Position numbers and translations under genes: made by a program. A stretch of DNA of 64,000 bases from Bacteroidota bacterium (GTDB lineage Bacteria; Bacteroidota; Ignavibacteria; UBA10030), in NCBI GenBank assembly GCA_049522195.1, contig JBEKOB010000008.1, positions 1,251-65,250 of the forward strand, in the 5' to 3' direction. Shown here one piece after another: positions 47,300 to 64,000 of this stretch; within the stretch, counting starts at the first letter, position 1, and each line of letters begins with the position of its first letter. The notes under the pieces are model-generated. The model saw only the letters and a list, made by a program, of their open reading frames with translations, had not been told where the DNA came from and searched no databases.

Positions 47300-47357
47300 A
47301 CGTGAATGTCAGAGGGGAAATGATCAATCACCGTCATTCACGAACTCTTGAAGGGCA

Positions 47358-50300
47358 TTGATGTCTCACACACTTAGGTCGACACTACTCAGCATCGCGT
47401 TGGTGGTTTGTCTGGTCGCGGCAGCAGAACCCGCTGCCGCCCAGGCCAAACTCCTCACGGTGCCCGATACGACGGCGAAGAAAGGTGATACGCTGCTGGT
47501 CCCGCTGCGCATTTCGAGCCTCGCGACGCTCGACAGCGTGTACTCCGGGCAGTTCACCCTCTCCTACAATTCCGGGGTGATGTATATCTACGACATCTCC
47601 ACTGCCGGCACACTCCTCGCGGGAACGGGAAATGTTTCCTTTAATCCCACCACGCGTCAGCTTGCGTTCGCTTCCGGAACGATCATCACCGGCTCAGGGC
47701 CCCTTATCTACCTGAAAGTCGCCACTTCTGCCAGTCCGTCGTCTTTGACGGATGTCATAAGCGTTACCTCTGCGGCTTTCAATGAGGGAACTCCTGCCAT
47801 TACGATCCACAATGGGAACTTCCGGTTCCGGACGATCACCATTTCGCCGAAGACTCCTCCGGGAAATCTTGTCGTTGGTGATTCTCTTCAGTTCTCGGTC
47901 TCCGGCGACCAGATCCCACCACTCACGTGGACGTCGTCGAATCCCTCCTTTGCGACTATCGACGCAAACGGGAAACTGCATGGCGTGGGAGTCGGGCAGC
48001 TGACTGTGTACGTCCAGGATTCGCAGGGCCTAAGGGACTCAACGAACCTGTTCCCAATCAACTCGCCTCTGCTCAACAGTCTCACGCTGTCGCTGCATGA
48101 TACAAGTTACACGCAGACGCTGACTTTCAATCTGCCAGTCTATATATCAGACGTGACGAGTCTTGGCATCATTTCTTCGCAATTCACGCTGACGTTCAAC
48201 TCATCGATTCTTCAGGCATTGGACGTGATCAAGGCGGGATCAATGAGTTCAACCTGGACGGCCCCTGCTTACAATATTTCGGGGGGACGCATCGACGTTG
48301 CTCTTGCTGGAAGTCAGCCACTGTCCGGCTCAGGGGTTTTGGTGTACGTGCGTTTCAAAGTACTCCCTGCTGCATCAGGCTCCACCACGATTGCGTTGTC
48401 AAATGTCCTGTTTAATGAGACGATCCATGCTTCGCTCGTCAACGGCAACTTCGGGACGATTGCAGCCCCCATTCTGATTATAGCGCCGGCGACGGGGATC
48501 TTGACCAAAGGAGACACGACAACCTTCCGTGTTACAAGCGGTGGACATCCCCCCTACTCCTGGACGAGCACCAGTCCTTCTGTCGCGACGATCAACAACA
48601 CGACCGGGCTTCTGACTGCTATTGCCCGTGGAACAACCACTGTCGCCGTCGTTGATTCTCTCAGCTTTACCGCGACGTCCGGCTCAATTGCCGTCAACGA
48701 CCTGCGGGTTTCGTTGCCGGACACGTCCGTGAACATTGCCGACTCCGTTGATGTCCCGATTACCACAGATCTCCTCACAGGACTCGGCATCTACTCGTAC
48801 GATTTCAGGCTTGTGTACGACTCGACTGTCGTGAAAATTGCCCAAGTATTGACCGCGGGAACACTGAGCAGCGGCATGACGATCGCAGTGCGCGATACGG
48901 TTGACACACTCCGTGTCGGCGCAGCTGGACCGGCCCCTCTGAGCGGTTCCGGTACACTGCTGAAAATTCGTTTCAAGGCCGCCCCGGGAGTTAGCCTCAG
49001 TCAATTGAGCAGCACACGCTTCGCGTTCTTCAATTTCAACGAGCCTGGTTCAGGGACTGCGACTGCTACGCCTCGCAACGGATCGATAACAATTGGCAAC
49101 GTGCTCCCTTCGGCTCCTGCTGCACCAACGCTCCTTTCCCCAACGACAGGGGCTACAGGTGTGGCCGTGGCGCCTGCACTGAGCTGGAATGCATCGACAG
49201 GAGCCACAAGTTACACGTTGCAGGTCTCCACAGTGGCCAATTTTGCGTCAACGGTTGTCAACCAAAGTGGAATTGCGGCTACGTCATTCAGCGCTTCTGG
49301 ACTGGCTAATAATACCCTTTATTACTGGCGCGTCAGCGCGACCAATGCAGGAGGGACGAGCGCGTACTCCACCGGGTTCTCGTTCACAACGATCATTGCT
49401 GCTCCGCCTCCTCCGTCTCTTGTCTCACCGGCCAGTGCGTCGACCGGTGTTTCCCTTACACCAACACTCAGCTGGAATGCCGCCTCCACGGCGACGAGTT
49501 ACACCGTGCAGGTGTCGACAGATCCGGCGTTCGGCTCGTTTGTGATCAATCAGGCCGGAGTAGCTTCGACATCGTATGTTGCGGGAGGGCTTTCGGGTAA
49601 CACGACGTACTATTGGAGGGTGAGTGGAACAAATGTGGGCGGCGCAGGTAACTACTCAAGTGTTTTCAACTTTGCAACGGGGTCGGGGGCTCCTGCTGCG
49701 CCGGTGCTCTCTTCGCCGCACGATACAGCAACAGCCATCGCTCTGAGCCCGACACTGAGTTGGAACGCCGTGACCGGAGCAACAAGCTACACGTTGCAGG
49801 TTTCGACAGCTGCTGATTTTTCAGCACTTGTCGTAAATCAAAGTGGCATCGCGGGGGTCTCGTCTTCGGTAGGTCCTTTGACCGCGACTACTCTTTATTA
49901 CTGGCGCGCCAGTGCGACAAACGCTGGAGGCACGAGCGCTTTTTCCTCCGCATTCAGATTTACAACGGCCATAGCTCCACCTGCAGCTCCAACGCTCGTC
50001 TCGCCGCACGACACAGCGACGGGCATCGCGGTGAATCCGACATTGACATGGAACTCTTCCGCCACGGCGACATCGTACACCGTACAAATCTCAACGAGTC
50101 CAACCTTTTCCTCGTTTGTTGTCAATCAAAACGGCATTGCGACGAACTCGTACAACGCGACTGGATTGGGGGGAGTCACCCTTTACTTCTGGCGTGTGAG
50201 CGCGACGAATGCAGGAGGATCGAGCGCTTTTTCCAGCACATTATCTTTTACCACAACCTTGAGCCCTCCAGCAGCTCCCACTCTCTCGACACCGCAGAAT

Positions 50301-52746: not shown

Positions 52747-52812
52747 GGTGAATATCCAATGTCGAATTTCGAATAATGAATGATGAAGTTGATTGTTGAT
52801 TCGTCGGGATGA
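52747..52812. repeat. Direct repeat copy A, ending in a decayed tRNA-Pro 3' fragment
   Basis: This 66-nt segment is about 85% identical by eye to 52987-53052, exactly 240 nt away. It ends in tcgtcgggatga, and further on it carries cgaccccctg, as the real tRNA does. Confidence 0.7.
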
Positions 52813-52986: not shown

Positions 52987-53052
52987 GGTGAATATCCAAT
53001 GTCGAACGCCCAATAACGAATGATGAAGTGAGTTGTTTGTTCGTCGGGATGA
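52987..53052. repeat. Direct repeat copy B (3' flank plus the last 9 nt of tRNA-Pro)
   Basis: See copy A. It starts ggtgaatatccaatgtcgaa and ends tcgtcgggatga, which overlaps the tRNA acceptor 3' strand. Confidence 0.7.
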
Positions 53053-53118
53053 CAGGATTCGAACCTGCGACCCCCTGCGCCCAAGGCAGGTGCTCTAACC
53101 GGGCTGAGCTACATCCCG
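53044..53118 (-). tRNA. tRNA-Pro: tRNA-Pro (anticodon TGG)
   Basis: The - strand reads CGGGATG TA GCTC AGCCCGGTTA GAGC A CCTGC CTTGGGC GCAGG GGGTC GCAGG TTCGAAT CCTGT CATCCCG A. This is a full cloverleaf with a TTCGAAT T-loop and anticodon loop C-T-TGG-G-C. No CCA is encoded. Confidence 0.9.
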
Positions 53119-54036
53119 AAGAAAATCAAAGGTTTTTCCATCTCGCCGCTCGCAAAAAGCATCAAACTAGGGTAGTCTGTTAGCAGTTTGTTAGCAGCTC
53201 TTCCCTCTTGAACCCACTGCATTCGCTCCCCAAATGGTCATTCTTTACCACCGCTCGTTAGCAACACGTTGGGGAATAGCCTTTGGATCCGTCAGTCGAG
53301 CGTATTGAATGATTTCAGTTGCGCACACAATGTACGGAAGGTTGATCACGGACGCAAGGCGTTCGTAGCGGCCCAAACATTCTGCAGACACGTCGTTCTG
53401 TAGAGGCGGTTCTTCCCGTGTCTCCTCCACCGGCACGTTTCTCTGGACTCAGACTGCAAAATGAATTTCTGCAAGAATCGATTTCCGAGCCCGAAAAGTC
53501 CGAGGGTAGAAAAGGACCGCTTAGAATCAGCTTTTTTCCATCGTTGGTCTGGAACAGCTGTTAGCGAATTGCCCCACTACTAATGGGCGAATTTAGAATC
53601 AACGTACTGATGTCTGTGTTTTCCCCAAGAATTGAACAAACTGAAGACCGAAGTCATTTAGCAAGAATACTAGATCCATGATCTAGTACACAAAAACAAA
53701 AGACCCCTGTAGACAGAGAGGTTTTGAGTTACCAGCGATCCAGATGTCACCAAAAAGTTACAATTCCGCGAAAGCCTCTCTCTCGTTGAAGGTGTGGTCT
53801 TGACAAGCGAGAAAATCTCCTCCTCAATGGCTCGATTACGAGTGTTGTTCCGGGGGTCTCCTGCCTACGTATCCATTAGCCTAGCGCAAATACCCAACGA
53901 GCGGCTCGCAGTAAGTCGGTTCTGATTCGATGCTAAAATCGGTGCTAACTCAAGGAACCGGTGTCCGATACAACGAGAGGTAAGCATCCTTCTGGCGCAA
54001 CCACTCACTCAAGACCGATCAAAGAGTCACCTCACA

Positions 54037-54070
54037 ATCCCCGCACCTGCACCTGCAACCGTGTGGGGAT
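54037..54070 (+). repeat. GC hairpin repeat, copy 1 (upstream of the LuxR-type gene)
   Basis: ATCCCCGCAC-ctgcacctgcaacc-GTGTGGGGAT followed by ttctgtttca. It uses the same stem as copy 2, and its loop carries an extra CCTGCA hexamer. Confidence 0.6.
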
Positions 54071-54110
54071 TTCTGTTTCATGCGGAAGTAACAAATGAGG
54101 AACGAACAAC

Positions 54111-54335
54111 TTGAGACTCAAGACCAAGAAACGATTCTTAGGGAGACCCCCTGCACCGAAAGAGCTTGAGACATGGAGGTTGTTGGCTCAAGGACTCACG
54201 AGTAAGGAAATCGCGAGAAAGCGACGGGTGTCGGTCGGAACTATAGAGACAGTTCGATCAATACTCTTGAGCAAGCTCGGTGCGCGCAACACTCCGACAC
54301 TGATCGCTATGTGGTACAGGCAGGAGAAGAAATGA
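54111..54335 (+). CDS. Stand-alone LuxR/GerE-type HTH protein (74 aa)
   Basis: LETWRLLAQGLTSKEIARKRRVSVGTIETVRSILLSKLGARNTPTLI fits the LuxR C-terminal HTH pattern. TTG start with AGGAA 8 nt upstream; there is an in-frame stop 12 nt upstream of the start. Confidence 0.65.
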   Translation: MRLKTKKRFLGRPPAPKELETWRLLAQGLTSKEIARKRRVSVGTIETVRSILLSKLGARNTPTLIAMWYRQEKK

Positions 54336-54363
54336 GATGCACAAAACCTGATCAGAAATCAAA

Positions 54364-54391
54364 ATCCCCGCACCTGCAACTGTGTGGGGAT
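54364..54391 (+). repeat. GC hairpin repeat, copy 2 (probable terminator of the LuxR-type gene)
   Basis: ATCCCCGCAC-ctgcaact-GTGTGGGGAT followed by tgccgtttca, 29 nt after the stop codon. Confidence 0.6.
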
Positions 54392-54527
54392 TGCCGTTTC
54401 AGGGGGAATGTGAGGCGGGGACGGTGGTGGTGAAGACGGTGGTGAGGAGGGATATCATATCATTCGAGCTTCAGCGGAGGCAGTTTGTACCACTCGAATG
54501 CGATCATAGCGATCCGGGTCGCTCAAA

Positions 54528-55010
54528 TCATTTCCGCTTTGACTTACCACTGCTCGTTTGCCCCCGCTCCCATCTGTCCTTCGCCTTCGCATCCACCTTG
54601 GTCTGCCACTGCATGTTGGAGGGGTTATCCCTACCACCGTTGGCCAATGGAATGATATGATCGATAACATATCCAGGCCGTCCGTGCGGATAGCCAGTCT
54701 GCTTCATGAATTGACGTTTCGCCGCCTCACTCCGTTTGATCTTGCCATGTGAATCTCGCTGGACTCCCGTTACGTAGGATTTGCGGTGGGTAGTTGATGA
54801 ACGTATGCTTGGGGCTGACTTCTTCTGGCGTGACGGAGATGACCGGTAGTGACTTGATGAGGATCGTGAATGAGATTGGTAGGTTCGGCTATGAGTTACA
54901 AATGACCGTTTGCCCCCTTTGGATCTTTGTGCGTCGATTGTGGCTGGGGCGAGCAGTAGGCATGCCAGCGCTACGACAAAGGCAGATACTAATCTACGGT
55001 TCATTGCCAT
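54528..55010 (-). CDS. Signal-peptide HNH (His-Me finger) nuclease domain protein
   Basis: MAMNRRLVSAFVVALACLLLAPATIDAQ signal peptide, a Ser/Arg/His-rich linker, then GYVIDHIIPLANGGRDNPSNMQWQTKVDAKAKD (HNH pattern DH.iPl..GG.d...N.Q). The ORF track start at 55040 would overlap the receiver gene. Confidence 0.65.
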   Translation of the reverse strand: MAMNRRLVSAFVVALACLLLAPATIDAQRSKGGKRSFVTHSRTYQSHSRSSSSHYRSSPSRQKKSAPSIRSSTTHRKSYVTGVQRDSHGKIKRSEAAKRQFMKQTGYPHGRPGYVIDHIIPLANGGRDNPSNMQWQTKVDAKAKDRWERGQTSSGKSKRK

Positions 55011-55026
55011 GCCACCCTGGTCACAT

Positions 55027-55407
55027 TCACGGGATACCACCTATTGCGTTTCGCACCGAAGCCAGAATCTCACTTAAACCAGAAGGTTTGAGAATGAAGT
55101 AGAAGGCACCCAAGCGCTTTGCCTCAAGAACCGTTTCCCTGTTCGCATTGCCGGACCAAAAAATAACAGGAGTATCCGCTATGTCTGGATCCGCTTTAAG
55201 TGCCTTAAGGAACTGGAGTCCATCCATGAAGGGTGAGTTGATGTCAGTGATATTCACATCCGCATGGTGTTCTCTGAGCCATGATATTCCAATACTCTTG
55301 GACTCCAATCCGTAGACCTTAAAGCCCGCCTTTTCCAGCTCTTTAATCAGAAGAAGCACAAGATTTTTCTCGTCATCCAGAACCAAAATTACCTTGGGGT
55401 TCATCAC
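55027..55407 (-). CDS. Orphan single-domain response regulator (receiver only)
   Basis: KVILVLDDEKN...DVNITDINSPFMDG...VIFWSG...FILKP: the receiver landmarks DD, D, S/T and K are all present. Confidence 0.75.
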   Translation of the reverse strand: MMNPKVILVLDDEKNLVLLLIKELEKAGFKVYGLESKSIGISWLREHHADVNITDINSPFMDGLQFLKALKADPDIADTPVIFWSGNANRETVLEAKRLGAFYFILKPSGLSEILASVRNAIGGIP

Positions 55408-55458
55408 AGAACGTACTCTCTAATTGCTTGTTTGATGTCTTTTTCAATACCAATTGAT

Positions 55459-55749
55459 CTACGCCGCCCTGGTAATGTTGATCGAACACCACTGCCCCAC
55501 GGTCATCTCACTTCCGGTGATCTTTGTACCAGCCTGCCTCAAGCATACATGTCGATTCAACGGATCACCCAGCCATTCAAGAACCATCCTGCCATTGATC
55601 TCCGCGTCCGAATGCGTCTTGAATAGGAACGCTTCATCGACATTCGCTGACCAGTTGATGGAGTTGAGATCCCAGAACTCAAAATGGCTCAGGTATTCCT
55701 TGCTGTCGGTGCGGCGCAGGATGGTGTATGTGGTTGGGAGGTGATTCAT
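55459..55749 (-). CDS. Small protein of unknown function (96 aa), paralogue of the 55-codon ORF at 57269..57436
   Basis: AAGGAAGGA lies directly upstream of the ATG. The first about 50 residues align with the other small ORF, and many of the differences are synonymous third-position changes (see findings). Confidence 0.65.
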   Translation of the reverse strand: MNHLPTTYTILRRTDSKEYLSHFEFWDLNSINWSANVDEAFLFKTHSDAEINGRMVLEWLGDPLNRHVCLRQAGTKITGSEMTVGQWCSINITRAA

Positions 55750-55835
55750 TCCTTCCTTGACTCATTTAATACGTTGGAGCATTCCAGAACGCTGATTCTG
55801 CGAGCGCCGGTTTGCCATTTGTCAGCCGGCGTGCC

Positions 55836-57272
55836 TCACTTGACAACGACCACACCATCACCATTCCTTATTACTGCGACCGGAGTCCCGCGCACGACAG
55901 CTAGCGTGCACGTGTTGAAATCAATAGATGACTTGTCCGCAGCGTTCGGAATATGGTAGCGATGACTATCTAAGCTGCCCCACACGCTCCATCCGTTTTT
56001 ACGGAGATCGTCGATTTGTTGATTGAAACCAAGCTGAGCTTCAGCCTGAGCTTTCACACCGATATCATCCCAAATGTCGATCCAATCGCGAACACTATCC
56101 AAAAACGAAGCTACTAGCTCAATTTCCGTTTCATTTTTCAACTCTTCATTGAAGATGAGACTAGCTTCGGCGCCGCCAATGATTTTCGCCAGTTGTGATC
56201 CAGAGCCAATGAGCGACAGCCGAGCTGCTTTTAGTGAATGAGATACAGTCTCTAGGATATCAGGTCGGATAACTTTGATTAGCTTCCTGGCGACGACATG
56301 AATTCCATCTTGCCACTTGGCAGCAATTCGATCTGCCAACGGAGGTGAGAAGGCTCTAACCTGTTCGACGTCTACGTTGTGCCAAACTGGAAGTATTAGT
56401 TTCTGACCGTTCGCCTCGCGTTGGGCCAGCCCATCAAGTTCCCGAGTTGGATAGTGCTTACCGAAAAAATGTGGTGAGAGTAATACAATACCAAATTTGC
56501 TGTTGGCAAGTCCTTCGTCGATTTTCTGTCGCAAACTGTCACCTACATTCAGCTCTGTCTGGTCAAACCAAACAGAGATACCCATTCCGCGGAGAAGAAT
56601 AGCCAGTGGAGCGGCTATTACCTCCCGGTCCTCAGATGCATACGAGATGAACGCATCCCACCGAGAGGGTCTGAAAGTTGAATCGAGGACATTGCGAGAT
56701 TCGACCTGCTGAGACTGAGGCTGTTCAAATACCGGTTCGGACCGTGGCTCTAGTTTCTTCTTGATGAAATTCTCCAAGCCATCGTATTGATAGAAGAAAT
56801 CAAATCCAGGCTCTCCTCCAAGGTTGATTTCATATACAAGGTTCTGTTCTTGATCCTTTCCCACCAACACGTGCCAGGTTGGACTCACAAAATCGCGGAC
56901 CAGCTCAAGGATCCGATATTTTTCCTGATCTCCCATGACGTTTTGCGTAGGGAAAGCCGACAATGAGATCTTGTCAACATTGGGGTGCTTCCGCACATAG
57001 TTCTGAATTGCCCTCAAGAGATCGTCCAGAAACTGAATATTGTCATCATCGGGATTGACGTGTGCTAATCCGAGAATAGTGAGGTTTCTTCCCCCTGGAG
57101 CTAGCCTCCAGTCGATTTTGCCCGGATCGAAATCAACAGGGATTTTACCTAACAATTCGGCTTTCAATTCACGCACGGTTCTGGTCTCTTGCTTCCTGAA
57201 TATCTCGTAAAGGGCTTGAAGCCATATTCTCTGTGCGGCATCAATTTTCAGTTGGGGGAGCCTGTACTTCAT
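55836..57272 (-). CDS. TIR-domain protein (478 aa) with unassigned N- and C-terminal domains
   Basis: The central region WDAFISYASEDREVIAAPLAILLRGMGISVWFDQTELNVGDSLRQKIDEGLANSKFGIVLLSPHFFGKHYPTRELDGL (about nt 56283-56657) fits the bacterial TIR_2 pattern, including the conserved Glu. Confidence 0.8.
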   Translation of the reverse strand: MKYRLPQLKIDAAQRIWLQALYEIFRKQETRTVRELKAELLGKIPVDFDPGKIDWRLAPGGRNLTILGLAHVNPDDDNIQFLDDLLRAIQNYVRKHPNVDKISLSAFPTQNVMGDQEKYRILELVRDFVSPTWHVLVGKDQEQNLVYEINLGGEPGFDFFYQYDGLENFIKKKLEPRSEPVFEQPQSQQVESRNVLDSTFRPSRWDAFISYASEDREVIAAPLAILLRGMGISVWFDQTELNVGDSLRQKIDEGLANSKFGIVLLSPHFFGKHYPTRELDGLAQREANGQKLILPVWHNVDVEQVRAFSPPLADRIAAKWQDGIHVVARKLIKVIRPDILETVSHSLKAARLSLIGSGSQLAKIIGGAEASLIFNEELKNETEIELVASFLDSVRDWIDIWDDIGVKAQAEAQLGFNQQIDDLRKNGWSVWGSLDSHRYHIPNAADKSSIDFNTCTLAVVRGTPVAVIRNGDGVVVVK

Positions 57273-57436
57273 TGCAGACCTTTCTTCGTTTTGGACCCAG
57301 CATCAAAGACAATTGCCATGTGATTCACGTGCGCAGACCATTGCAGTGAATTCCGATTCCAGAATTCGAAATGAGTCAGATATTCGTTGGTGTCGGTGCG
57401 GTGGAGGATGATGAATGTCAACTGGAACTCATTCAT
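57269..57436 (-). CDS. Small ORF (55 codons, not in the ORF track), translationally coupled to the TIR gene
   Basis: My translation is MNEFQLTFIILHRTDTNEYLTHFEFWNRNSLQWSAHVNHMAIVFDAGSKTKKGLQ*. Its TGA overlaps the TIR ATG (ATGA at 57269-57272). It is a paralogue of 55459..55749. Confidence 0.6.
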   Translation of the reverse strand: MNEFQLTFIILHRTDTNEYLTHFEFWNRNSLQWSAHVNHMAIVFDAGSKTKKGLQ

Positions 57437-57486
57437 GCTTATTCCGGTGTTTCGCTGGATTCTGCTGGCTCGACCTTTTTGGACGC

Positions 57487-57774
57487 TTATAGCAATTTCG
57501 CACGAACAAGACGAGCGACAATTCTGGCAAACTCATCCGCCACTTGTTCCTTCGGAGCGGGATCGTCGGCGACCTTCATCACGATTTCCCACTCAAGGGC
57601 ACGCTTGCCCTTTCCCCAAACTGTTTTGAATCGACCGAGTTCTTTGCCAGCGTTTGGTGATTGGGTTCGCATTGAAGAATTGTCGTCCGCAGCAGATGGG
57701 GCCGCATACTCGGCAACGAGATCTAGCTCATTTCTACCATCGACAAAGGGAAAATCCGCGTTGAGCACGCGCAC
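57487..57774 (-). CDS. Hypothetical protein (95 aa)
   Basis: It is co-directional, lying 43 nt after the HEPN gene and 50 nt before the small ORF. I recognise no motif in it. The antisense + strand ORF 57371..57778 is judged spurious. Confidence 0.4.
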   Translation of the reverse strand: MRVLNADFPFVDGRNELDLVAEYAAPSAADDNSSMRTQSPNAGKELGRFKTVWGKGKRALEWEIVMKVADDPAPKEQVADEFARIVARLVRAKLL

Positions 57775-57817
57775 ATAACAATCCTCTCTTCAATACGCAT
57801 CGTTTGCGTAACGTGAG

Positions 57818-59470
57818 TTAGTAGTATTTCAATTCATCTGGAATATTTCGAGCGAAAAGAGGAATTACTTTCTCCTCACCCAAGATTCTTTCCTTCTTAG
57901 TTTCCTCAATCCAAACGAGATTGACCAAGTAAATTATAGCAGAACGCACGGCTTGAAAGAGATTCAAAGTTACTTCTAACAGTTTATCTTCTGTTATGGC
58001 AAGCTCATGGATATTCGTTTCCTCGTCCTCATCTGAAAACGGAGATGAGATCGGACCCAAGGGAACCACCTGAAGGTATTTGTGTTCCAAATGATTTCGT
58101 ATAATTGAAAGATGGCTGAGATTGCCTTGTTTAGAGTAATCTTGAGCTATATCATACAGGGCTACTAAACCAACATTGGCTTGAATTTCATTCAGTTTGT
58201 TGTTTATGCCTTTTTTGAACTCCAGATCGGCATACCAAATATTTGCGAAATAGATTTTCCCCTTTTGATTCAATTCAAGATATTCATTCAAGAATACCGC
58301 GATCTTATCAAGCGAACTAAACGCCAAACGGTACGAAAATTTCAGCAATTCCTGATAAACATTCATCGAAGCATAATCAAGCGTGTTGATAATCGCAACC
58401 TTGCCGTCTACAAATCTGAGCTTAGGATCTTTGAACTGAGATTGAGTCAACAAGAATCTCGCAGTAGCAAACTCCTGTTTGACTTGGTTAAGATATCGAC
58501 AAAGGCTCAGATATTTGTCTTTCCCCTTTGAGGGCACTAACATCTTTTGAATGACAATCGGATCGCCAACGGAGGCATAGCAGTTGCAATAAAAGCTGTG
58601 GGGATTTAAGTAAAGCCTGTGGTTAAGGCAGAAGTTCACATAGAATGTTTTGAACCGAGACCGATATCTCCTGTGCCATACTCTGACGTGCTCAGTTTTC
58701 TTCCTCAGATTCATCTTGCCCGTCAATGATTTCTTAATCGGCTTCAAATAACTATCCTCAAAGAATCTCCTTGGTGCTTCTTCGATCATTTTAGATTTAC
58801 ACGCGCTCTTTAGCATCCAGTAGGCTTCATAATACAGCTTGGAATAGTACTCTTTTTCTGGTGTGACGTGAGTCAGAAAGCAAAAGACCCTTGCCTTATT
58901 TGCTAAAGCCATCGGATGTTTTGGAGAATGGTAAAGAGCTTTATCATAAAATTCGATTGATTCGAGATTTCTTCCTAGATCGTTGAAACAGTTTCCAAGA
59001 TTTACGTATAGGCGGGCCATCCGCTCGTTGTCAATTTGTGGTCCTTTCTCAGTTAGCAAAGTAGTCGCATGATAGAAACAGTTCTTGGCTTGTTGGATCT
59101 GATTGATTGATACAATTGAGTATTTAAAATCAGGTTCCTGTTTTTCGATTTTGTGCAGGGCAGCAAAACCATTCCCGAGGTCGTACCAATAGGTGAACTC
59201 AAGTTCTTTGCCCTGCGTGAAGATTCTTTCCTTGTTGCTTTCGAGAAACCCGATTCCTTTCCTAACGATAGCCGGATCATTCAATCCGTCGCCAATATCA
59301 ATCAAAAAACCTGCTACGTTTATGAGCACACCTATCTGATGAAGGTCGTACTTTTGATTTATTACCGACAATCCTTCGAACGCTTCTCGATACTTGCCTT
59401 CGCCAATCAGCCGGCTCACTGACCTAAATTCATCAGGATAAAGGAATTGACTCATTTCTTCGGTTACCAT
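57818..59470 (-). CDS. TPR-like N-terminal region fused to a C-terminal HEPN-like domain (Rx4H)
   Basis: TPR-like segments (ARLYVNLGNCFNDLGRNLESIEFYDKALYHSPKHPMALANKA). An RNHLEH motif lies at nt 58082-58099, 87 residues from the C-terminus, in a helical context (LSHLSIIRNHLEHKY). Confidence 0.6.
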   Translation of the reverse strand: MVTEEMSQFLYPDEFRSVSRLIGEGKYREAFEGLSVINQKYDLHQIGVLINVAGFLIDIGDGLNDPAIVRKGIGFLESNKERIFTQGKELEFTYWYDLGNGFAALHKIEKQEPDFKYSIVSINQIQQAKNCFYHATTLLTEKGPQIDNERMARLYVNLGNCFNDLGRNLESIEFYDKALYHSPKHPMALANKARVFCFLTHVTPEKEYYSKLYYEAYWMLKSACKSKMIEEAPRRFFEDSYLKPIKKSLTGKMNLRKKTEHVRVWHRRYRSRFKTFYVNFCLNHRLYLNPHSFYCNCYASVGDPIVIQKMLVPSKGKDKYLSLCRYLNQVKQEFATARFLLTQSQFKDPKLRFVDGKVAIINTLDYASMNVYQELLKFSYRLAFSSLDKIAVFLNEYLELNQKGKIYFANIWYADLEFKKGINNKLNEIQANVGLVALYDIAQDYSKQGNLSHLSIIRNHLEHKYLQVVPLGPISSPFSDEDEETNIHELAITEDKLLEVTLNLFQAVRSAIIYLVNLVWIEETKKERILGEEKVIPLFARNIPDELKYY

Positions 59471-59751
59471 TTCAGCATTTTGGGGCTTTTGCTTTTGACA
59501 ATTCGAACCTCATCCTCAGCAAGTCCGTATAGTTTGTAAACAAGTCTATCAATCTCCCCTATCCATTGCCTTGATCTGGTGCTCCAACAGTTCTTTCTTG
59601 CCATCTGTGGTTGATTCTGTTTACGGTGAGGGTCCGACATTCTCTCGACAAGCTGCGCCATCCGTGGTGCATTGCTTTGTCGTCTGGTGGATTGCAAAAG
59701 GCGATAGTAATTTAGATTTCTGTCTGGTCTTTGTAAGCAGTTTGCATTTGA
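59464..59751 (-). pseudogene. Remnant of the C-terminal tail of an Eco57I/type IIG-like methyltransferase
   Basis: The stop-to-stop frame ends ...MAQLVERM....IGEIDRLVYKLYGLAEDEVRIVKSK, parallel to the tail of the 1015-aa enzyme (HLVGLVEQIM....LDRQIDEAVYELYGLTEEEIKIVEG). No upstream methyltransferase body is present. Confidence 0.55.
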
Positions 59752-59758
59752 TCATACT

Positions 59759-60601
59759 TCACTCTTTCCAAATCATTTCCCCTCTAGCATTCCAGAAAAT
59801 CTCGCCAGGACCCATCCAAGGGAAAAGACCACACTCTTCTAGCTTCAGTAGCACAAATTTGATTGCATCCCCTGGACTTTGCGATAAGGTGCATAAGAAC
59901 CTAGCTCCAGGAAAGTTAGTTGCACAGGCAAAGAACTCAGGCCCGACAATATTCTCATCACCTTTTTTGAAATACAGGGGTGTCAATGCTATGCCAGCAT
60001 CCCCCGTCCGCATCATACCATAAGGGCGGTAATCATTCTTTTGGGGAGCTCTGACATATCTTCTAATCTCAGAATACAAATTAGAGCTGTGATGAGACTT
60101 GGTCTTCTCGATATCATTATTTGTGTCTTTCAACATCTGCCATATTGAGCATTCAAAAGCGATTTTGTGCAAAGCTCGACTTACCTGTGTATGGTTCACA
60201 TTCTTTAGACTTGCGTGCTGTATAGATAGTGTACCATCATTTTTCAATACTACTCGCCCTTCACCTTTGTCGATGCTTAGTAATTTATTCCTCCGAGAAG
60301 TCAACCTTACTGTTTCGTTTTCATAGACAGAAATTGACGAATTATAACTGGGAATGCTTTTCAATGTTTTCCACATCCGTAAAACCGGATGATTAACAAG
60401 ATGAGTATCCAAATGTGAGCCGAAATAGCGGTTGCAACTCCTGCAAATAATTCCTTTGGGGAGGGTATAGGGTGATATAATACGCAGCCTTGGGTCATCG
60501 CTCGTATTCCCAAGCGAAAAAGGGATGATATTATATTCATCGTCAGACTTGCGATCGACCTTCCCTGAACAATACAGGCAGGTGTCTGTTATTAAGTTCA
60601 T
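59759..60601 (-). CDS. HNH_5-like zinc-ribbon endonuclease-fold protein (catalytic His replaced by Tyr)
   Basis: CLYCSGKVDRKSDDEYNIIPFSLGN....ICRSCNRYFGSHLDTHL follows C..C....EH.iP..LGG....vC..CN..f....D, but with EY for EH and GN for GG. About 200 further residues are unassigned. Confidence 0.5.
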   Translation of the reverse strand: MNLITDTCLYCSGKVDRKSDDEYNIIPFSLGNTSDDPRLRIISPYTLPKGIICRSCNRYFGSHLDTHLVNHPVLRMWKTLKSIPSYNSSISVYENETVRLTSRRNKLLSIDKGEGRVVLKNDGTLSIQHASLKNVNHTQVSRALHKIAFECSIWQMLKDTNNDIEKTKSHHSSNLYSEIRRYVRAPQKNDYRPYGMMRTGDAGIALTPLYFKKGDENIVGPEFFACATNFPGARFLCTLSQSPGDAIKFVLLKLEECGLFPWMGPGEIFWNARGEMIWKE

Positions 60602-60723
60602 TCACTTTTCTTTCTCGCTGTCGGCCTTTGTTTGTATGAACTTCAACCGTTGAGCCCGATTGCGCCACATCAGAGATTCTTGACCTTTTGTTTTGTACGA
60701 TCTCCAAGCGTCGTTTTTCGATT

Positions 60724-63700
60724 TCACGTCCTTGAGTCGCCCTCCACAATCTTTATCTCTTCTTCTGTCAACCCATATAACTCATATACAGCTTCATCGA
60801 TCTGACGGTCCAGGCTTTCACACTGCAGTTCGAGCCGATTCTTTTCGGCATCGGTCTTCGCGGTTGAGAGTGTTTCTTCGGAATACATTATCTGCTCGAC
60901 AAGGCCCACTAAGTGATCGTGTTTCGATCTTTGTGATGAATCATCAAAATCAATCATATGTATGGGCAGTTGCTCTGTGTACTTCGTCCAGAAACGAACA
61001 TATCCTCCCCTCAACGCCGTACTGACACGCTTGAGGCACCAGAATAACAACTTGCTGTTTAGCAGGGCAAGAAGGTATTTCGGACTATGCCTGTCATCCT
61101 TTGGAAGTAAGCCATAACCTGTCTTGAAGAAATGTCCATTTGCATCGATCGTGAACGACGCTGTATTGTTATAGTCGGGGACCACGATCTTGGGCCTGGA
61201 AAAGAGAGTCATACTCTTCGGGTAACCAAAGGCATACCAGTTTGGCCCTTTGAATCGCCCACCTTCTCGTTTCATTAGCTTTGTCTTGTTCAACTCCAAA
61301 TACGAATGTGCTTTTGGAAAATCCCTCTTCAGATCAGTTTCTTGAATAAGATTGAACTCAGTATCGCCGATTTGGTAAGGGCAGATCATGACGGAAGAGG
61401 AGTGCAGGGGTCGATATCGACGGATATCCTTTCCCTTCAGGAATCTCTTTACGATCTCTGATTCTACATTCATACGCTGGGTGAGTGATGCCGAATCCCC
61501 TTTCACTATCGATTTACCAAACTCGCAGTTTTCCAAAACGAAGACGTCATCTGCACTCGTTTGGGTTCCTACGAAAATATGGAACACTTCAGACGCGTTT
61601 CGGTTCGTTGATTCGAGTCTGCGAAACAACCTCTCGTCGCCGGCGTCTCCAAATATCCACTGTGTTCCCGAAATTGATTTTTCTTCTATGACAATCTCAT
61701 CCGCCTTCAAGTCCTTCTCCCACGTTTCAATATCCCCAACCTTAGCAAACCTGAATTCCGTATTGTTTCTCTTACTTAGGAAAAGAAGGCAAGTATACGT
61801 TGTCGCACCAACAAACACTTGATTCTCTCCGAAATGAACCACTTTGTCCAAGAACCTCCCGTCTGCGACGATGCGACGAAGTCCTTCACCATATTGAGCA
61901 CTGAAAAATTTGTGCGGCAAAATGAATCCTAAGCTCCCCTCCCAACGCAAAAGGCTGATCCCTCGCTCGACGAAGACAACATATATGTCATAGTTCCCTG
62001 ATGCAGCAGATGCAAAGTGATCTTTGAGATATTTCACAGATTCAGGACTGGACTCATTCATCGTTTGAATTCTTATGTACGGTGGATTCCCCACAATACC
62101 ATCAAAGCCACCCCTCTTGATCACCTTCGGAAACACTTCTCCTGTGTTCATTGGTTTGAGCTTGGAATCATCTACATTCGGGAACAAAGATCCATCGAGA
62201 ATATCCCGCCCGACTAGAGAATTTCCACACACAATATTGTTTTTCAGGTCAGGCAGAATTGTTTCCTTGAACAATCCGAACTGATGGGCATCACTCATCG
62301 TTGCGTCTTCGAGGAGCTTCAGATACAGTGAGAGCTGTGTGACTTCGGTTGCTTGGAAATCGATATCCACACCGTAGATGTTATTGAGTAGGATTTCTTT
62401 CTTCTTTTTCAGCGAAAGATGTAGTTGCCCATCACGCTCAAACAGATCGTCCGTCTTCGCCTTCTCTCGGTTTGCCAGGTAATATCTGACGTGATAATCG
62501 AGCAGTTGAGCGTACACTTCGATCAGGAATGAACCCGATCCGCACGCAATATCTGCAAAAGCCAAATGTGCGATCTCGGCGGGAGTCTTGCCTTCGATCT
62601 GCCTCCCGACTGTTTCCTTTACGATGTAGCGGACGATGTATTCGGGAGTATAGTAGACACCACCTGACTTTCGAACCTCCGGTTTTTCTTCAACCTTCAC
62701 ACGCTTGTCAGTAGCGTGCACCACCTTGCCTAGGAACCTCTCGTAGATGCTGCCAAGAATCGATATCGGAATTTGGTTGAAATCGTATGGGGAACCCGGA
62801 TCGGCCAGCTCCGAACATATCTCTGCGAACATTTTGTCTTCAGTAGTAGCAAATGTGATCTCATCCAGTATGCGATGCGGCTTGAAGACCAACCCGTTGT
62901 ACTTGGGCTCACATCTTTTGCAGAGATTGACAAATCCCTTCCAAGCCGACTTCTGTCCTTTGAGATTGATGATCGCCTTCTCTTCAATACCTTTGTCTTC
63001 GAGGAACCGGATAAACACAAGTCGGTCAATTGTTCGTTGGACGGCCTCGGTGAGTTCTTCTCCTTCCAGCTTTTCATTAGCCTTCTTGAATGCTTTGGCA
63101 AGCGTGATGCGATATTCATCCAGCTCTTCCAGAAATGCTTCATCGACCGCTTGATATCCTCCTTTGAGCAATCCTTTCTGGCCACCCTTGCCACGCGGCT
63201 TTGGCAACTCAGCCGCCCGCTTCTCAATTGAACCACCCGCAACGGCCTCCCGTGAGAACAGATAGTAGACATGGGCGAATTTGTCTTCGACGGCATAGTC
63301 GGAATAATGGAATGACTCCACTTTGCGATTCATCGCTTCGTCGATATCTGGTTTGAACCGGCAGTCCAGAATATGAAATTCTTCGAAGTCTGTTAGTACC
63401 GCAAGCGGAGTTTTTGCATTCCAACCGTAACGGATCGTTTGGTAGTAATCTTCTGCATTTGCAAGGTTCTTCGACGGCTTTTTTGCCTCCACAAAGAATT
63501 TCGGATCTCGGAAATTCGGACTGAGGAAGAATGCGTAGTCAGCTCGCCGCTGGGAAGACCCTGCCATCTTTACCTTGTTCTCAATGTGGACCTCTTGCTC
63601 GTAAGGATTCCTTTGCTGCACGTGTGTGACATCCCATCCCAAAGCAGCGAAGAATTTGTCAATGAAATCCTGACGAACTTGTGACTCTTGATAGCCGGGT

Positions 63701-63771
63701 GAAAGGTAGGCTGCCTCCTGTGCCTTAAAATCAGTCACAAGTTGTTTAATAGTTTCAAAGGACTGCTTCAT
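60724..63771 (-). CDS. Type IIG restriction-modification enzyme (fused PD-(D/E)xK nuclease, gamma-class N6-adenine methyltransferase and target recognition region)
   Basis: The N-terminus has RRADYAFF...KFFVEAKKP (D...ExK). SAM motif I FADIACGSGSFL lies at nt 62527-62553 and motif IV GNPPYI at nt 62077-62088. The long C-terminal region ends in IDEAVYELYGLTEEEIKIVE. Confidence 0.8.
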   Translation of the reverse strand: MKQSFETIKQLVTDFKAQEAAYLSPGYQESQVRQDFIDKFFAALGWDVTHVQQRNPYEQEVHIENKVKMAGSSQRRADYAFFLSPNFRDPKFFVEAKKPSKNLANAEDYYQTIRYGWNAKTPLAVLTDFEEFHILDCRFKPDIDEAMNRKVESFHYSDYAVEDKFAHVYYLFSREAVAGGSIEKRAAELPKPRGKGGQKGLLKGGYQAVDEAFLEELDEYRITLAKAFKKANEKLEGEELTEAVQRTIDRLVFIRFLEDKGIEEKAIINLKGQKSAWKGFVNLCKRCEPKYNGLVFKPHRILDEITFATTEDKMFAEICSELADPGSPYDFNQIPISILGSIYERFLGKVVHATDKRVKVEEKPEVRKSGGVYYTPEYIVRYIVKETVGRQIEGKTPAEIAHLAFADIACGSGSFLIEVYAQLLDYHVRYYLANREKAKTDDLFERDGQLHLSLKKKKEILLNNIYGVDIDFQATEVTQLSLYLKLLEDATMSDAHQFGLFKETILPDLKNNIVCGNSLVGRDILDGSLFPNVDDSKLKPMNTGEVFPKVIKRGGFDGIVGNPPYIRIQTMNESSPESVKYLKDHFASAASGNYDIYVVFVERGISLLRWEGSLGFILPHKFFSAQYGEGLRRIVADGRFLDKVVHFGENQVFVGATTYTCLLFLSKRNNTEFRFAKVGDIETWEKDLKADEIVIEEKSISGTQWIFGDAGDERLFRRLESTNRNASEVFHIFVGTQTSADDVFVLENCEFGKSIVKGDSASLTQRMNVESEIVKRFLKGKDIRRYRPLHSSSVMICPYQIGDTEFNLIQETDLKRDFPKAHSYLELNKTKLMKREGGRFKGPNWYAFGYPKSMTLFSRPKIVVPDYNNTASFTIDANGHFFKTGYGLLPKDDRHSPKYLLALLNSKLLFWCLKRVSTALRGGYVRFWTKYTEQLPIHMIDFDDSSQRSKHDHLVGLVEQIMYSEETLSTAKTDAEKNRLELQCESLDRQIDEAVYELYGLTEEEIKIVEGDSRT

Positions 63772-63892
63772 CTCATCTGCCTGCGTTTAGGACTGGAGTT
63801 CGATGCATACAACAGATTTTCGATGAGGTCACTGCTAATCTACACGAATAACGAGCTGTATTCAACTCATGCGAGCACCCGTTCACCGTTTG

Positions 63893-64000
63893 TTAGTGGT
63901 CGCTTTTCTGCTCAGAGATAATTGGTTCAACTAAATCGTAGAATTCCTTGGTGATTGGTTTCATCTTGACATGTTGATCCATGCCTTCGCGTAACCAATC
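63893..64000 (-). CDS. C-terminal end of an unidentified gene that continues right of the window
   Basis: Open frame to the window edge: ...WLREGMDQHVKMKPITKEFYDLVEPIISEQKSDH*. It is too short to assign. Confidence 0.3.
   Translation of the reverse strand, partial: DWLREGMDQHVKMKPITKEFYDLVEPIISEQKSDH

What the first reader, a model, noticed from the sequence alone, without database searches (positions are those of the whole stretch)
53119..64000. AT-richer accessory island packed with nuclease, NADase and RM-type genes starts at tRNA-Pro
To the right of the tRNA the sequence becomes visibly AT-richer. Spot counts illustrate this: the 60-nt line starting at 58141 has 22 G+C, against 38 G+C in the line starting at 49141. 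The gene content also switches to a LuxR mini-HTH, an HNH nuclease, an orphan receiver, a TIR protein, a TPR-HEPN protein, a methyltransferase remnant, an HNH_5-like protein and a type IIG RM enzyme. Nearly all of these are on the - strand. This has the hallmarks of a horizontally acquired defence island. No integrase or transposase is visible in the window, and the island continues past the right edge.
Basis: partly seen in the sequence, partly recalled or inferred. Interest (0 to 1): 0.7.

Follow-up and report, generated by a model that had tools for sequence, protein, structure and literature searches.

The report
Strain-variable defence island beside tRNA-Pro
The DNA to the right of a proline tRNA gene in this uncultured Ignavibacteria-like bacterium is a foreign-looking, strain-variable patchwork of predicted anti-phage genes from known families, with no visible machinery for moving itself; it is a fairly ordinary defence island with a few unusual details.

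Summary
GC falls from 0.529±0.014 (1-53 kb) to 0.40-0.48 between 55 and 65 kb (z -3 to -8).

The window is part of JGI contig Ga0427939_0000139, so I could read 13.6 kb past the right edge. The atypical, orphan-rich region runs to the contig end, at least 24.5 kb from the tRNA. It holds no integrase, transposase, phage gene or tRNA-derived repeat.

In four related contigs, similarity to the window stops 3-7 nt beyond the 5' end of tRNA-Pro, and each has different DNA there. One near-identical contig carries a PrimPol/DUF5131 element instead. The island therefore does begin at the tRNA. It lies on the tRNA's 5' side, which is the unusual side for integrase-driven insertion.

The defence core consists of independent modules:
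- an intact Eco57I-type IIG enzyme with a conserved downstream HNH_5-like partner, whose catalytic His is Asn in this haplotype;
- a stub of an older IIG-like gene;
- a solitary TPR-HEPN protein of the LA2681 family;
- an AbTir/TcpB-type TIR protein with a unique N-terminus.

LuxR, the small secreted HNH and the receiver are accessory genes, not evident defence genes.

Verdict: a new member of a known kind, of moderate to low interest.

The parts
53043..53118 (-). tRNA-Pro(TGG). Its 5' end is the left boundary of the variable region.
   Evidence: ARAGORN and Rfam, 68.8 bits. In alignment A1 the window, L098, L087 and L100 are identical through the tRNA and diverge 3-7 nt past its 5' end.
53119..54110 (.). 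About 1 kb with no convincing gene. It is the first part of the strain-specific DNA.
   Evidence: No ORF of 64 aa or more, no Pfam hit for the 63-aa ORF, and no Rfam hit. It is 99.9% conserved in L099 from another sample.
54111..54335 (+). LuxR/GerE-type mini HTH protein, 74 aa, TTG start. It is bracketed by two similar terminator-like hairpins (54037-54070 and 54363-54392).
   Evidence: PF00196, E 2.9e-9, above threshold. Hairpin repeat. The metagenome annotations did not call this gene.
54528..55010 (-). Small HNH nuclease with a signal peptide, 160 aa. It is probably secreted and is not evidently a defence gene.
   Evidence: HNH and HNH_5 hits are below the Pfam cut-offs (18.9 and 19.5 bits). 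PHROG HNH E 1.8e-5. Motif VIDHIIPLANGG...NMQWQT and N-terminal MAMNRRLVSAFVVALACLLLAPA read. GC is near native.
55027..55404 (-). Stand-alone response-regulator receiver, 125 aa.
   Evidence: PF00072, E 4.5e-21. GC 0.46, GC3 0.51.
55459..55749 (-). 96-aa protein of a very rare unannotated family (sm96).
   Evidence: No hit in Pfam, NCBIfam, PADLOC or PHROGs. Only 21 clusters among 1.84 billion representatives.
55836..57272 (-). TIR protein, 478 aa. Residues 1-200 are a unique N-terminal region. Residues 202-335 are an AbTir/TcpB-type TIR domain with catalytic Glu278. Residues 340-478 are a family-specific C-terminal domain.
   Evidence: TIR_2 E 4e-19. PDB TcpB/BtpA, AbTir and PdTIR E 1e-39 to 1e-33, about 50% identity. 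Model against 7uxu: target-normalised TM-score 0.87. E278 is invariant in 34 sequences. Homologs are solitary proteins of about 283 aa matching residues 202-478.
57269..57436 (-). 55-aa truncated paralog of the 96-aa protein (sm55). Its stop overlaps the TIR start (ATGA).
   Evidence: 58% identity over 38 aa. 110-nt direct repeat 55640-55749 / 57327-57436, 72% identical.
57487..57774 (-). 95-aa ORF of unknown function.
   Evidence: Called in all contigs. No family hit.
57818..59470 (-). TPR + LA2681-type HEPN protein, 550 aa, a predicted RNase. It has the lowest GC in the island.
   Evidence: PF18733, 160.6 bits; TPR hits. Rx4H motif RNHLEH read. Full-length matches to NCBI 'LA2681 family HEPN' proteins on 26 plasmids, solitary in three contexts. 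GC 0.402.
59464..59697 (-). Remnant of the C-terminal end of an earlier type IIG-like gene.
   Evidence: 41% identity over 39 aa to residues 975-1013 of the neighbouring IIG enzyme. PADLOC REase_MTase_IIG positions 1039-1063 of 1066, E 3.7e-5.
59759..60601 (-). HNH_5-like partner of the IIG enzyme, 280 aa. Codon 24 (60530-60532) is Asn here; it is the conserved HNH catalytic His in all homologs and in the other haplotype.
   Evidence: HNH_5 23.4 bits, below the cut-off of 27.5. Alignment A2. Polymorphism. It lies directly downstream of an N6-MTase RM-type enzyme in 4 of 4 readable contexts (and the window). The model has pLDDT 81 with no PDB fold match.
60724..63771 (-). Intact Eco57I/MmeI-like type IIG restriction-modification enzyme, 1015 aa.
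   Evidence: HSDR_N, N6_Mtase, MmeI_Mtase, Eco57I and TaqI_C domains. PADLOC PDLC03604 E 2e-246 over 6-1009. Motifs D..EAK, DIACGSGSF and NPPY read.
63893..64000 (-). 3' end of a DUF5677 gene (258 aa) that runs off the window. The island continues beyond it.
   Evidence: L001 is identical to the window over 13,277 nt and extends it. DUF5677 E 1.8e-7.

Best explanation
Window 53,119-64,000, continuing for at least 13.6 kb beyond the edge, is a horizontally assembled, strain-variable accessory region. It occupies a recombination hot spot on the 5' side of tRNA-Pro(TGG) in an uncultured Ignavibacteria-like Bacteroidota genome. It is a mosaic of separately acquired cassettes, not one mobile element.

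The defence core spans about 55.8-63.8 kb and holds three independent modules.
(a) A type IIG enzyme that should methylate host DNA and cut unmodified incoming DNA. A conserved HNH_5-like partner gene lies directly downstream; in this haplotype it carries a predicted catalytically dead His24Asn allele. A stub of an older IIG-like gene sits next to the pair, showing cassette replacement.
(b) A solitary TPR-HEPN (LA2681) protein, predicted to be an RNase of the abortive-infection or toxin type.
(c) A TIR protein with an AbTir/TcpB-type domain, predicted to cleave NAD+. Its sensing or regulatory parts are a family-specific C-terminal domain and a unique N-terminal region.

The tRNA-proximal genes (LuxR mini-HTH, secreted small HNH, orphan receiver) and the distal genes (DUF5677, redoxin, membrane proteins, Zn-ribbon and MauJ-like proteins, an orphan M1-like peptidase) are accessory cargo of unclear role.

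Shown: composition, gene families, intact catalytic motifs, strain and species variability, the exact left junction, and the lack of mobility genes. Inferred: horizontal origin, defence function, enzymatic activities, and turnover by recombination rather than by an integrase.
For: Composition. GC z-scores are -3 to -8 and tetranucleotide z reaches 7 across 55-65 kb. GC3 is 0.43-0.55 against a core of 0.618±0.036, and this continues to 73.7 kb.

Left junction. Four related contigs lose similarity 3-7 nt past the tRNA's 5' end. On that side they carry RibD_C (L087), an AcrB-like gene (L100), M23 peptidase and TPR genes (L009), or a PrimPol-PriCT-AAA_25 / HTH / 2x DUF5131 element (L098; 99% identical to the window on the 3' flank of the tRNA). 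None of those genes occurs in the window or its 9.8-kb extension.

No mobility apparatus. There is no integrase, transposase or PHROG hit, and no tRNA-derived 18-mer repeat (up to 3 mismatches) in the 20.7 kb scanned to the right of the tRNA (to ext 73,771); the last 3.8 kb to the contig end were checked for tRNA genes and integrases only.

Mosaicism. Adjacent genes differ strongly in GC: TIR 0.477, HEPN 0.402, IIG 0.466. An IIG stub survives. The TIR gene is bracketed by diverged paralog fragments.

Module independence. TIR-CTD homologs and LA2681 HEPN proteins are each solitary elsewhere, with unrelated neighbours. The IIG/HNH_5-like pair recurs in other phyla.

Motifs. TIR Glu278, HEPN Rx4H, and IIG PD-ExK and NPPY are all intact.
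Against: - The first 2 kb next to the tRNA (LuxR, small HNH) are compositionally almost native, so they could be old residents.
- The right-hand boundary was not found, because the contigs end.
- L098 could be an extra insertion between the tRNA and a window-type island, or a second tRNA-Pro locus, rather than an allelic replacement. Its contig ends before the far junction.
- The island is fixed and nearly clonal (99.9-100% identical) in all 13-20 contigs of this population. No island-free genome of the same species was seen.
- No defence function is demonstrated. The LA2681 HEPN and this TIR-CTD family have no experimental anti-phage record that I could find (one search returned only the 2013 in-silico survey).
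Confidence: 0.72

Rival explanations
1. The region is, or recently was, a classical integrase-mobilised genomic island that targets tRNA-Pro. Its integrase and second att site lie beyond the end of the available contig or have been deleted.
For: The junction with the tRNA is sharp to within 3-7 nt. A near-identical contig has a typical integrative-element replication module (PrimPol-PriCT-AAA_25, Xre HTH, DUF5131) at the same site. Three assemblies break at the same point about 24.5 kb from the tRNA, as they would at a repeat or a variable junction.
Against: The island is on the 5' side of the tRNA, whereas tRNA-targeting integrases normally leave the element on the 3' side (established knowledge; rare reversed cases exist). 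No tRNA-derived repeat occurs in the 20.7 kb scanned to the right of the tRNA or in the 10.3 kb of L098. There is no integrase, excisionase or transposase in the full 24.5 kb. GC is heterogeneous between neighbouring genes.
Confidence: 0.15
2. The TIR protein, the TPR-HEPN protein and the small ORFs between them form one signalling defence system of the Thoeris kind. In this reading the TIR makes a cyclic ADPR-type signal that switches on the HEPN RNase.
For: The genes are adjacent, co-directional and tightly spaced, and the sm55 stop overlaps the TIR start. The TIR domain is closest to AbTir, which makes 2'cADPR (bioRxiv 10.1101/2022.05.07.491051). There are weak ThsB hits in PADLOC.
Against: No ThsA-type sensor domain (SIR2, SLOG or Macro) or any other known nucleotide-sensor domain was hit in any neighbour. 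TIR-CTD homologs are solitary in three other contexts, and LA2681 HEPN proteins are solitary in three plasmid contexts; the two were never seen together. The two genes differ by 7.5 points of GC.
Confidence: 0.07
3. The region is native chromosome. Its low GC would reflect gene-specific constraints (membrane proteins, low expression), and the synteny differences would reflect ordinary rearrangement.
For: The island is fixed in every contig of this population. The tRNA-proximal genes have near-native GC. The two giant T9SS genes on the other side of the tRNA are also absent from relatives yet have native composition.
Against: GC3 is depressed in soluble enzymes as well (TIR 0.49, HEPN 0.45, HNH_5-like 0.43). 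Tetranucleotide z reaches 7. The closest homologs of the TIR and of the IIG/HNH pair lie in other phyla at 35-56% identity. The M1-like peptidase has essentially no relatives. A different element occupies the site in a 99%-identical contig.
Confidence: 0.05

Closest known systems
Defence islands and flexible genomic islands at tRNA-linked chromosomal hot spots
   Same: Atypical composition. Clustering of RM, TIR and HEPN genes. Different cargo at the same site in close relatives. A junction exactly at a tRNA gene. Remnants of replaced cassettes.
   Different: The island sits on the 5' side of the tRNA. There is no integrase, att repeat, transposase or phage gene in 24.5 kb. About half of the content has no recognisable defence family.
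Type IIG restriction-modification enzymes (Eco57I / MmeI group)
   Same: A single 1015-aa polypeptide with an N-terminal PD-ExK nuclease (HSDR_N / MmeI_N), a gamma-type N6-adenine methyltransferase (NPPY) and a TaqI_C specificity domain. It aligns over the full length of PADLOC REase_MTase_IIG.
   Different: It is followed by a conserved HNH_5-like gene, which to my knowledge is not part of the described single-protein systems. The specificity and cleavage pattern are unknown.
AbTir / TcpB (BtpA) / PdTIR bacterial TIR NAD+ hydrolases
   Same: About 50% identity across the TIR domain and a conserved catalytic Glu (RELDG). The predicted fold superposes on AbTir (7uxu, target-normalised TM-score 0.87).
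   Different: The architecture is an unknown 200-aa N-terminal region, then the TIR domain, then a 140-aa C-terminal domain. AbTir and TcpB instead have an N-terminal coiled coil followed by the TIR domain. The host is a free-living environmental bacterium, so a virulence-effector role is unlikely.
Thoeris (ThsB TIR + ThsA effector)
   Same: A TIR domain with weak to moderate ThsB profile hits.
   Different: No ThsA or other signal-sensing effector is present, and homologs of the TIR gene stand alone.
LA2681-family HEPN proteins (Anantharaman et al. 2013, PMC3710099)
   Same: TPR + HEPN_LA2681 architecture with an intact Rx4-6H motif. It is a solitary gene.
   Different: Only 22-27% identity to annotated members. 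The family has no experimentally shown function.

Membership tests
Type IIG RM enzyme | One polypeptide carrying nuclease, N6-adenine methyltransferase and target-recognition domains | tested here: met
   HSDR_N/MmeI_N (residues 23-159), N6_Mtase/Eco57I/MmeI_Mtase (338-674) and TaqI_C (777-937). PADLOC PDLC03604 E 2e-246, covering 6-1009 of 1015 residues.
Type IIG RM enzyme | Intact catalytic motifs (PD-(D/E)xK; motif I; NPPY) | tested here: met
   ADYAFF...FVEAKK, DIACGSGSF and GNPPYIR read from the translation. This is a by-eye reading.
Type IIG RM enzyme | Sequence-specific methylation and cleavage | not testable with these tools
   Needs expression and methylome or cleavage assays.
Integrase-type tRNA-inserted genomic island | Tyrosine or serine recombinase gene at one end | tested here: not met
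   No such Pfam hit in the window's island or in the 13.6 kb to the contig end (gene tables).
Integrase-type tRNA-inserted genomic island | Direct repeat of a tRNA segment at the distal end | tested here: inconclusive
   No 18-mer of the tRNA (up to 3 mismatches) occurs within the 20.7 kb scanned to the right of it. The island's distal end was not reached.
Integrase-type tRNA-inserted genomic island | Element lies 3' of the intact tRNA | tested here: not met
   The tRNA is on the minus strand at 53043-53118, and the island starts at its 5' end.
Genomic or defence island (general) | Atypical composition, and presence or absence differing between relatives | tested here: met
   (composition). 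(different content in L087, L100, L009 and L098).
Thoeris | ThsB-type TIR together with a ThsA effector (SIR2 or TM domain plus SLOG or Macro sensor) | tested here: not met
   TIR hits to ThsB profiles reach E 1e-27. No SIR2, SLOG or Macro domain occurs in any neighbouring protein.
AbTir/TcpB-type TIR NADase | TIR fold with a conserved catalytic glutamate | tested here: met
   E 1e-39 to 1e-33 against 4lzp, 4c7m, 8g83, 7uwg and 3h16. E278 aligns with the ELDGL glutamate of AbTir and is invariant in alignment A3.
AbTir/TcpB-type TIR NADase | NAD+ cleavage or cADPR production | not testable with these tools
   Biochemical assay required.
PADLOC candidate PDC-S66 | Full-length match to the 282-position model | tested here: not met
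   The hit (E 1e-50) covers only model positions 136-263, which is the TIR part, and residues 192-319 of 478. The architecture differs.
LA2681 HEPN family | HEPN_LA2681 domain above threshold with an Rx4-6H motif, typically fused to TPR | tested here: met
   160.6 bits against a cut-off of 27. TPR_8/TPR_1 at residues 152-185. RNHLEH read. The family description is in PMC3710099.
HNH endonuclease (HNH_5), 280-aa protein | Zinc-binding cysteines plus the catalytic His of the beta-beta-alpha-metal motif | tested here: not met
   The cysteines are conserved (C8, C11, C53, C56). Position 24 is Asn in the window but His in all 11 homologs aligned there (the twelfth lacks this region) and in the alternative haplotype. 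The Pfam score of 23.4 is below the cut-off of 27.5.

The most novel reading that the evidence does not exclude
The 280-aa HNH_5-like protein may be a dedicated, previously undescribed partner of single-polypeptide methyltransferase-type restriction enzymes, both the Eco57I-type IIG group and the N6_Mtase + Type_ISP_C group. It could act as the cutting subunit, a second nuclease, or a guard that fires when the RM enzyme is inhibited. In this natural population an allele with the catalytic histidine replaced (His24Asn) segregates beside the wild-type allele, which suggests that the nuclease is costly to its host.
Probability: 0.3. Interest if true: 0.55.

Novelty: new member of a known kind. 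Interest (0 to 1): 0.35.

Why it matters
The region is a clean example of a defence and accessory island in an uncultured Ignavibacteria-like lineage. Its left border can be fixed to a few nucleotides at a tRNA gene, yet it lacks any integration machinery and lies on the unusual 5' side. That supports the view that such hot spots can be refilled by recombination rather than by self-mobile elements.

The region also yields three testable leads:
- a conserved RM-enzyme/HNH gene pair with a natural active-site polymorphism;
- a widespread solitary TIR + C-terminal-domain family related to the well-studied AbTir and TcpB NADases, found here in a non-pathogen;
- an LA2681 TPR-HEPN gene in a defence context.

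None of these changes current concepts. They add candidates for experimental defence screens.

Tried and rejected
- Searched for a second att site. All 18-mers of the tRNA (up to 3 mismatches) were scanned over the 20.7 kb to the right of the tRNA and over L098. Nothing was found beyond a chance-level match inside the LuxR ORF.
- Looked for the island's right border.
  - The M1-like peptidase gave no relatives in GTDB representative genomes and only its own cluster in the protein database.
  - The remaining 3.8 kb of the contig hold only hypothetical genes.
  - The border remains unknown.
- Looked for an island-free genome of the same species. The exact tRNA sequence returned one GTDB genome (a different species) and three JGI contigs. 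All contigs carrying the exact IIG or small-HNH protein have the same gene order.
- Rfam gathering and E-value searches of the gene-free 1 kb and the whole window found only the tRNA.
- The promoter and terminator scan was no better than shuffles.
- PHROGs gave no phage family for the island proteins, so the region is not a prophage.
- PADLOC on the genes beyond the window edge gave nothing.
- The Foldseek search of the confident HNH_5-like model against the PDB gave no significant match. Its fold outside the small HNH motif stays unassigned.
- The 729-aa and 713-aa 'hits' of the 96-aa protein are probably spurious: the one retrieved and read (729 aa) is a low-complexity tandem-repeat protein, and the 713-aa one shows the same 12-stretch pattern.
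- A single Thoeris-like TIR-HEPN system was considered and rejected. See the rival explanations.

Full report
**1. Observation**

The window's only tRNA is tRNA-Pro(TGG) at 53043-53118 on the minus strand.

Composition:
- In 2-kb windows, positions 1-53 kb average GC 0.529 (sd 0.014).
- The z-scores to the right of the tRNA are -1.6 (53-55 kb), -3.3 (55-57 kb), -7 to -8 (57-61 kb) and about -4 (61-65 kb).
- Tetranucleotide distance peaks at z 5-7 in the same place.
- Per-gene GC3 is 0.618±0.036 (minimum 0.541) for 26 genes left of 41 kb. It is 0.43-0.55 for most genes to the right.

The AT enrichment is therefore real and large. It is a mosaic that deepens from about 55 kb, not a step at the tRNA.

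**2. Gene content**

| Gene | Coordinates (strand) | Evidence |
|---|---|---|
| LuxR/GerE mini-HTH | 54111-54335 (+) | PF00196 above threshold |
| Small HNH, 160 aa | 54528-55010 (-) | Below the Pfam cut-offs; textbook DHIIP...NMQWQ motif; signal peptide, so probably secreted |
| Orphan receiver | 55027-55404 (-) | PF00072 |
| TIR protein, 478 aa | 55836-57272 (-) | TIR_2 |
| TPR + HEPN_LA2681, 550 aa | 57818-59470 (-) | 160.6 bits; RNHLEH motif intact |
| IIG-like remnant, 77-aa ORF | 59464-59697 (-) | Last 39 aa match the C-terminus of type IIG enzymes |
| HNH_5-like, 280 aa | 59759-60601 (-) | 23.4 bits, below the cut-off of 27.5 |
| Type IIG enzyme, 1015 aa | 60724-63771 (-) | Nuclease, NPPY methyltransferase and TaqI_C specificity domains; PADLOC REase_MTase_IIG E 2e-246 |

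The first two are paralogs that bracket the TIR gene, with a 110-nt repeat at 72% identity.

**3. Beyond the window**

The exact IIG protein is encoded on 20 metagenome contigs. L001, from JGI 3300038425 contig Ga0427939_0000139, is identical to the window over 13,277 nt, so the window is part of that 154,753-nt contig. Together with L104, this let me read 13.6 kb past position 64000, to the contig end.

The extension encodes, all on the same strand:
- DUF5677;
- a redoxin-family protein;
- several membrane or lipoproteins;
- a Zn-ribbon protein;
- a MauJ-like protein;
- an M1-like peptidase with virtually no relatives;
- DUF7670;
- a 403-aa protein with no family hit.

GC3 stays low as far as 73.7 kb, the limit of the per-gene calculation. 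There is no integrase, transposase, tRNA or phage family. No tRNA-derived repeat was found in the 20.7 kb scanned to the right of the tRNA.

**4. Comparison with relatives**

The organism is an Ignavibacteria-like Bacteroidota MAG. The best GTDB representative shares 83% aa identity on a flanking metallo-beta-lactamase gene.

Three relatives have that gene, a receiver gene and tRNA-Pro directly adjacent:
- L087 (85% aa identity);
- L100 (86% nt identity);
- L009 (63% aa identity).

On the 5' side of the tRNA, each carries something different: RibD_C (L087), an AcrB-like gene (L100), or M23 peptidase and TPR genes (L009). None of these genes is present in the window or in its 9.8-kb extension.

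The most telling contig is L098. It is 99% identical to the window over the tRNA and 139 nt of its 3' flank. It then switches, 3 nt past the tRNA's 5' end, to an unrelated 10.3 kb that encodes PrimPol-PriCT-AAA_25, an Xre HTH, two DUF5131 proteins and a pentapeptide protein. L099, from the same sample, is window-type. The left border of the variable region is therefore fixed to a few nucleotides at the tRNA.

Two caveats apply:
- L098 ends before its far junction, so it could be an additional insertion, or a second tRNA-Pro locus, rather than a replacement.
- Within this population the island is fixed and nearly clonal, with about 5 SNPs per 22 kb.

**5. What the parts are**

*Type IIG enzyme and its partner.* The IIG enzyme looks functional. 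Its downstream 280-aa gene belongs to a small family of 19 clusters. That family sits immediately downstream of a single-polypeptide N6-methyltransferase RM-type enzyme in all four contexts where the upstream DNA is readable:
- the window itself;
- a Nitrospirae MAG whose IIG enzyme is 35% identical to the window's enzyme;
- two N6_Mtase + Type_ISP_C enzymes that have no recognised nuclease domain.

The family conserves four cysteines and a Y-H-I-I-P motif. The window allele has Asn at that His. The only amino-acid difference between the two population haplotypes in this gene is this residue. By analogy with other HNH nucleases (established knowledge, for example Cas9 H840), this should abolish catalysis. 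A confident structure model (pLDDT 81) has no PDB fold match. The adjacent IIG C-terminal stub shows that an earlier RM gene was overwritten.

*HEPN protein.* It is a full-length member of the NCBI 'LA2681 family HEPN' group (26 plasmid hits, 22-27% identity). It is solitary, with unrelated neighbours, in three plasmids. The family was defined in silico as TPR-fused with a conserved Rx4-6H motif (PMC3710099).

*TIR protein.* The TIR domain is about 50% identical to TcpB/BtpA, AbTir and PdTIR (E down to 1e-39). The model superposes on AbTir at a target-normalised TM-score of 0.87, and the catalytic Glu278 is invariant. AbTir is an NADase that makes 2'cADPR (bioRxiv 10.1101/2022.05.07.491051; PMC10641520). 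About 235 homologs were found. Among the 120 listed, most are stand-alone proteins of roughly 283 aa that match residues 202-478 (TIR plus a confidently folded C-terminal domain), and they occur in many phyla. Some carry AbiJ_NTD4 or DUF2513 N-termini. The contexts examined show no conserved partner. The window's first 200 residues have no homolog outside their own cluster.

*Small ORFs.* The 96-aa family has only 21 clusters among 1.84 billion representatives. Its function is unknown.

**6. Mechanism**

The best-supported reading is a patchwork of independent defence modules, accumulated with other accessory genes at a plastic site next to tRNA-Pro:
- methylation-dependent self/non-self restriction by the IIG enzyme, with the HNH partner's role unknown;
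- a TIR NAD+-cleaving protein;
- a HEPN RNase, both probably of the abortive-infection type.

No mobility genes or att repeat are present and the island lies on the tRNA's 5' side. For these reasons I favour turnover by homologous or illegitimate recombination between conserved flanks over integrase-mediated insertion (confidence about 0.7). The integrative-element rival stays at about 0.15, because of the L098 element and the unresolved distal end. A single Thoeris-like TIR-to-HEPN system is unlikely (about 0.07). A native origin is unlikely (about 0.05).

**7. Comparison with known systems, and novelty**

Membership was met for type IIG RM, the LA2681 HEPN family and the AbTir/TcpB-type TIR family, as far as sequence features go. 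It was not met for:
- Thoeris, because there is no ThsA;
- PADLOC PDC-S66, because only the TIR part of the model matches;
- an active HNH, because the catalytic His is missing in this allele;
- integrase-type tRNA islands.

The whole is a new member of a known kind, the defence or flexible genomic island. The most novel reading still open is that the HNH_5-like protein is a genuine, undescribed partner of single-chain RM enzymes with a naturally segregating dead allele (probability about 0.3).

**8. Verdict**

Interest is 0.35.

Noticed in passing
window 60530-60532 (codon 24 of the 280-aa gene, minus strand): A His/Asn polymorphism falls exactly at the predicted HNH catalytic histidine. Six loci drawn from four distinct contigs carry Asn, as the window does, and five loci from three distinct contigs carry His. 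It is the only amino-acid difference in the gene, among about 5 SNPs per 22 kb between the haplotypes.
   Followed up: yes
window 59759-63771; L110 2958-6987; L113 2834-6996; L117 438-4599: The HNH_5-like family lies directly downstream (14-122 nt) of a single-polypeptide N6-methyltransferase RM-type enzyme in 4 of 4 readable contexts. Two of these enzymes are Type_ISP_C-type with no recognised nuclease domain.
   Followed up: partly
window 41636-52616: Two giant T9SS-sorted surface-protein genes (1887 and 1752 aa; beta-helix, dockerin, cohesin, fn3) sit between the receiver gene and tRNA-Pro. They are absent from that position in L087, L100 and L009. Their GC and GC3 are native.
   Followed up: partly
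window 52747-52812 and 52987-53052; L087 3596-3680: A 66-nt direct repeat (85% identity) includes the 3' end of tRNA-Pro. The left copy continues as a tRNA-Pro 3'-half remnant with a replaced T-arm. A comparable remnant exists in the relative L087, so it looks like an old att-like scar on the canonical 3' side.
   Followed up: partly
L098 1-10310 (JGI Ga0187850_10004805): An alternative occupant of the same site: PrimPol-PriCT-AAA_25 replicase, Xre HTH, two DUF5131 (gp37/gp68-like) proteins, a pentapeptide-repeat membrane protein and several unknowns, at GC about 0.47. No integrase lies within the 10.3 kb available.
   Followed up: partly
window 55459-55749 and 57269-57436: Paralogous small ORFs (96 aa, and a truncated 55-aa copy) bracket the TIR gene. 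The family is extremely rare (21 clusters among 1.84 billion representatives) and unannotated.
   Followed up: partly
window 54037-54070 and 54363-54392: Two similar GC-rich, terminator-like hairpins (CCCCGCAC...GTGTGGGG) bracket the LuxR mini-ORF. The exact motif occurs nowhere else in the window.
   Followed up: partly
window 53119-54110: About 1 kb next to the tRNA has no ORF of 64 aa or more and no Rfam match, yet it is 99.9% conserved in another sample. It could be a decayed gene or regulatory DNA.
   Followed up: partly
L001 position 288 (about 9.5 kb past the window edge) and L104 position 1 (about 13.6 kb past the edge): Independent assemblies break at the same two points. Three contigs end inside the M1-like peptidase gene, and three end at the end of the JGI contig. 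This hints at strain-variable junctions or repeats there.
   Followed up: no
L104 1080-2291: A 403-aa protein with no family hit contains an RRNIHVH stretch that, by eye, resembles a HEPN Rx4H motif. It may be another RNase-type gene at the distal end of the island.
   Followed up: no
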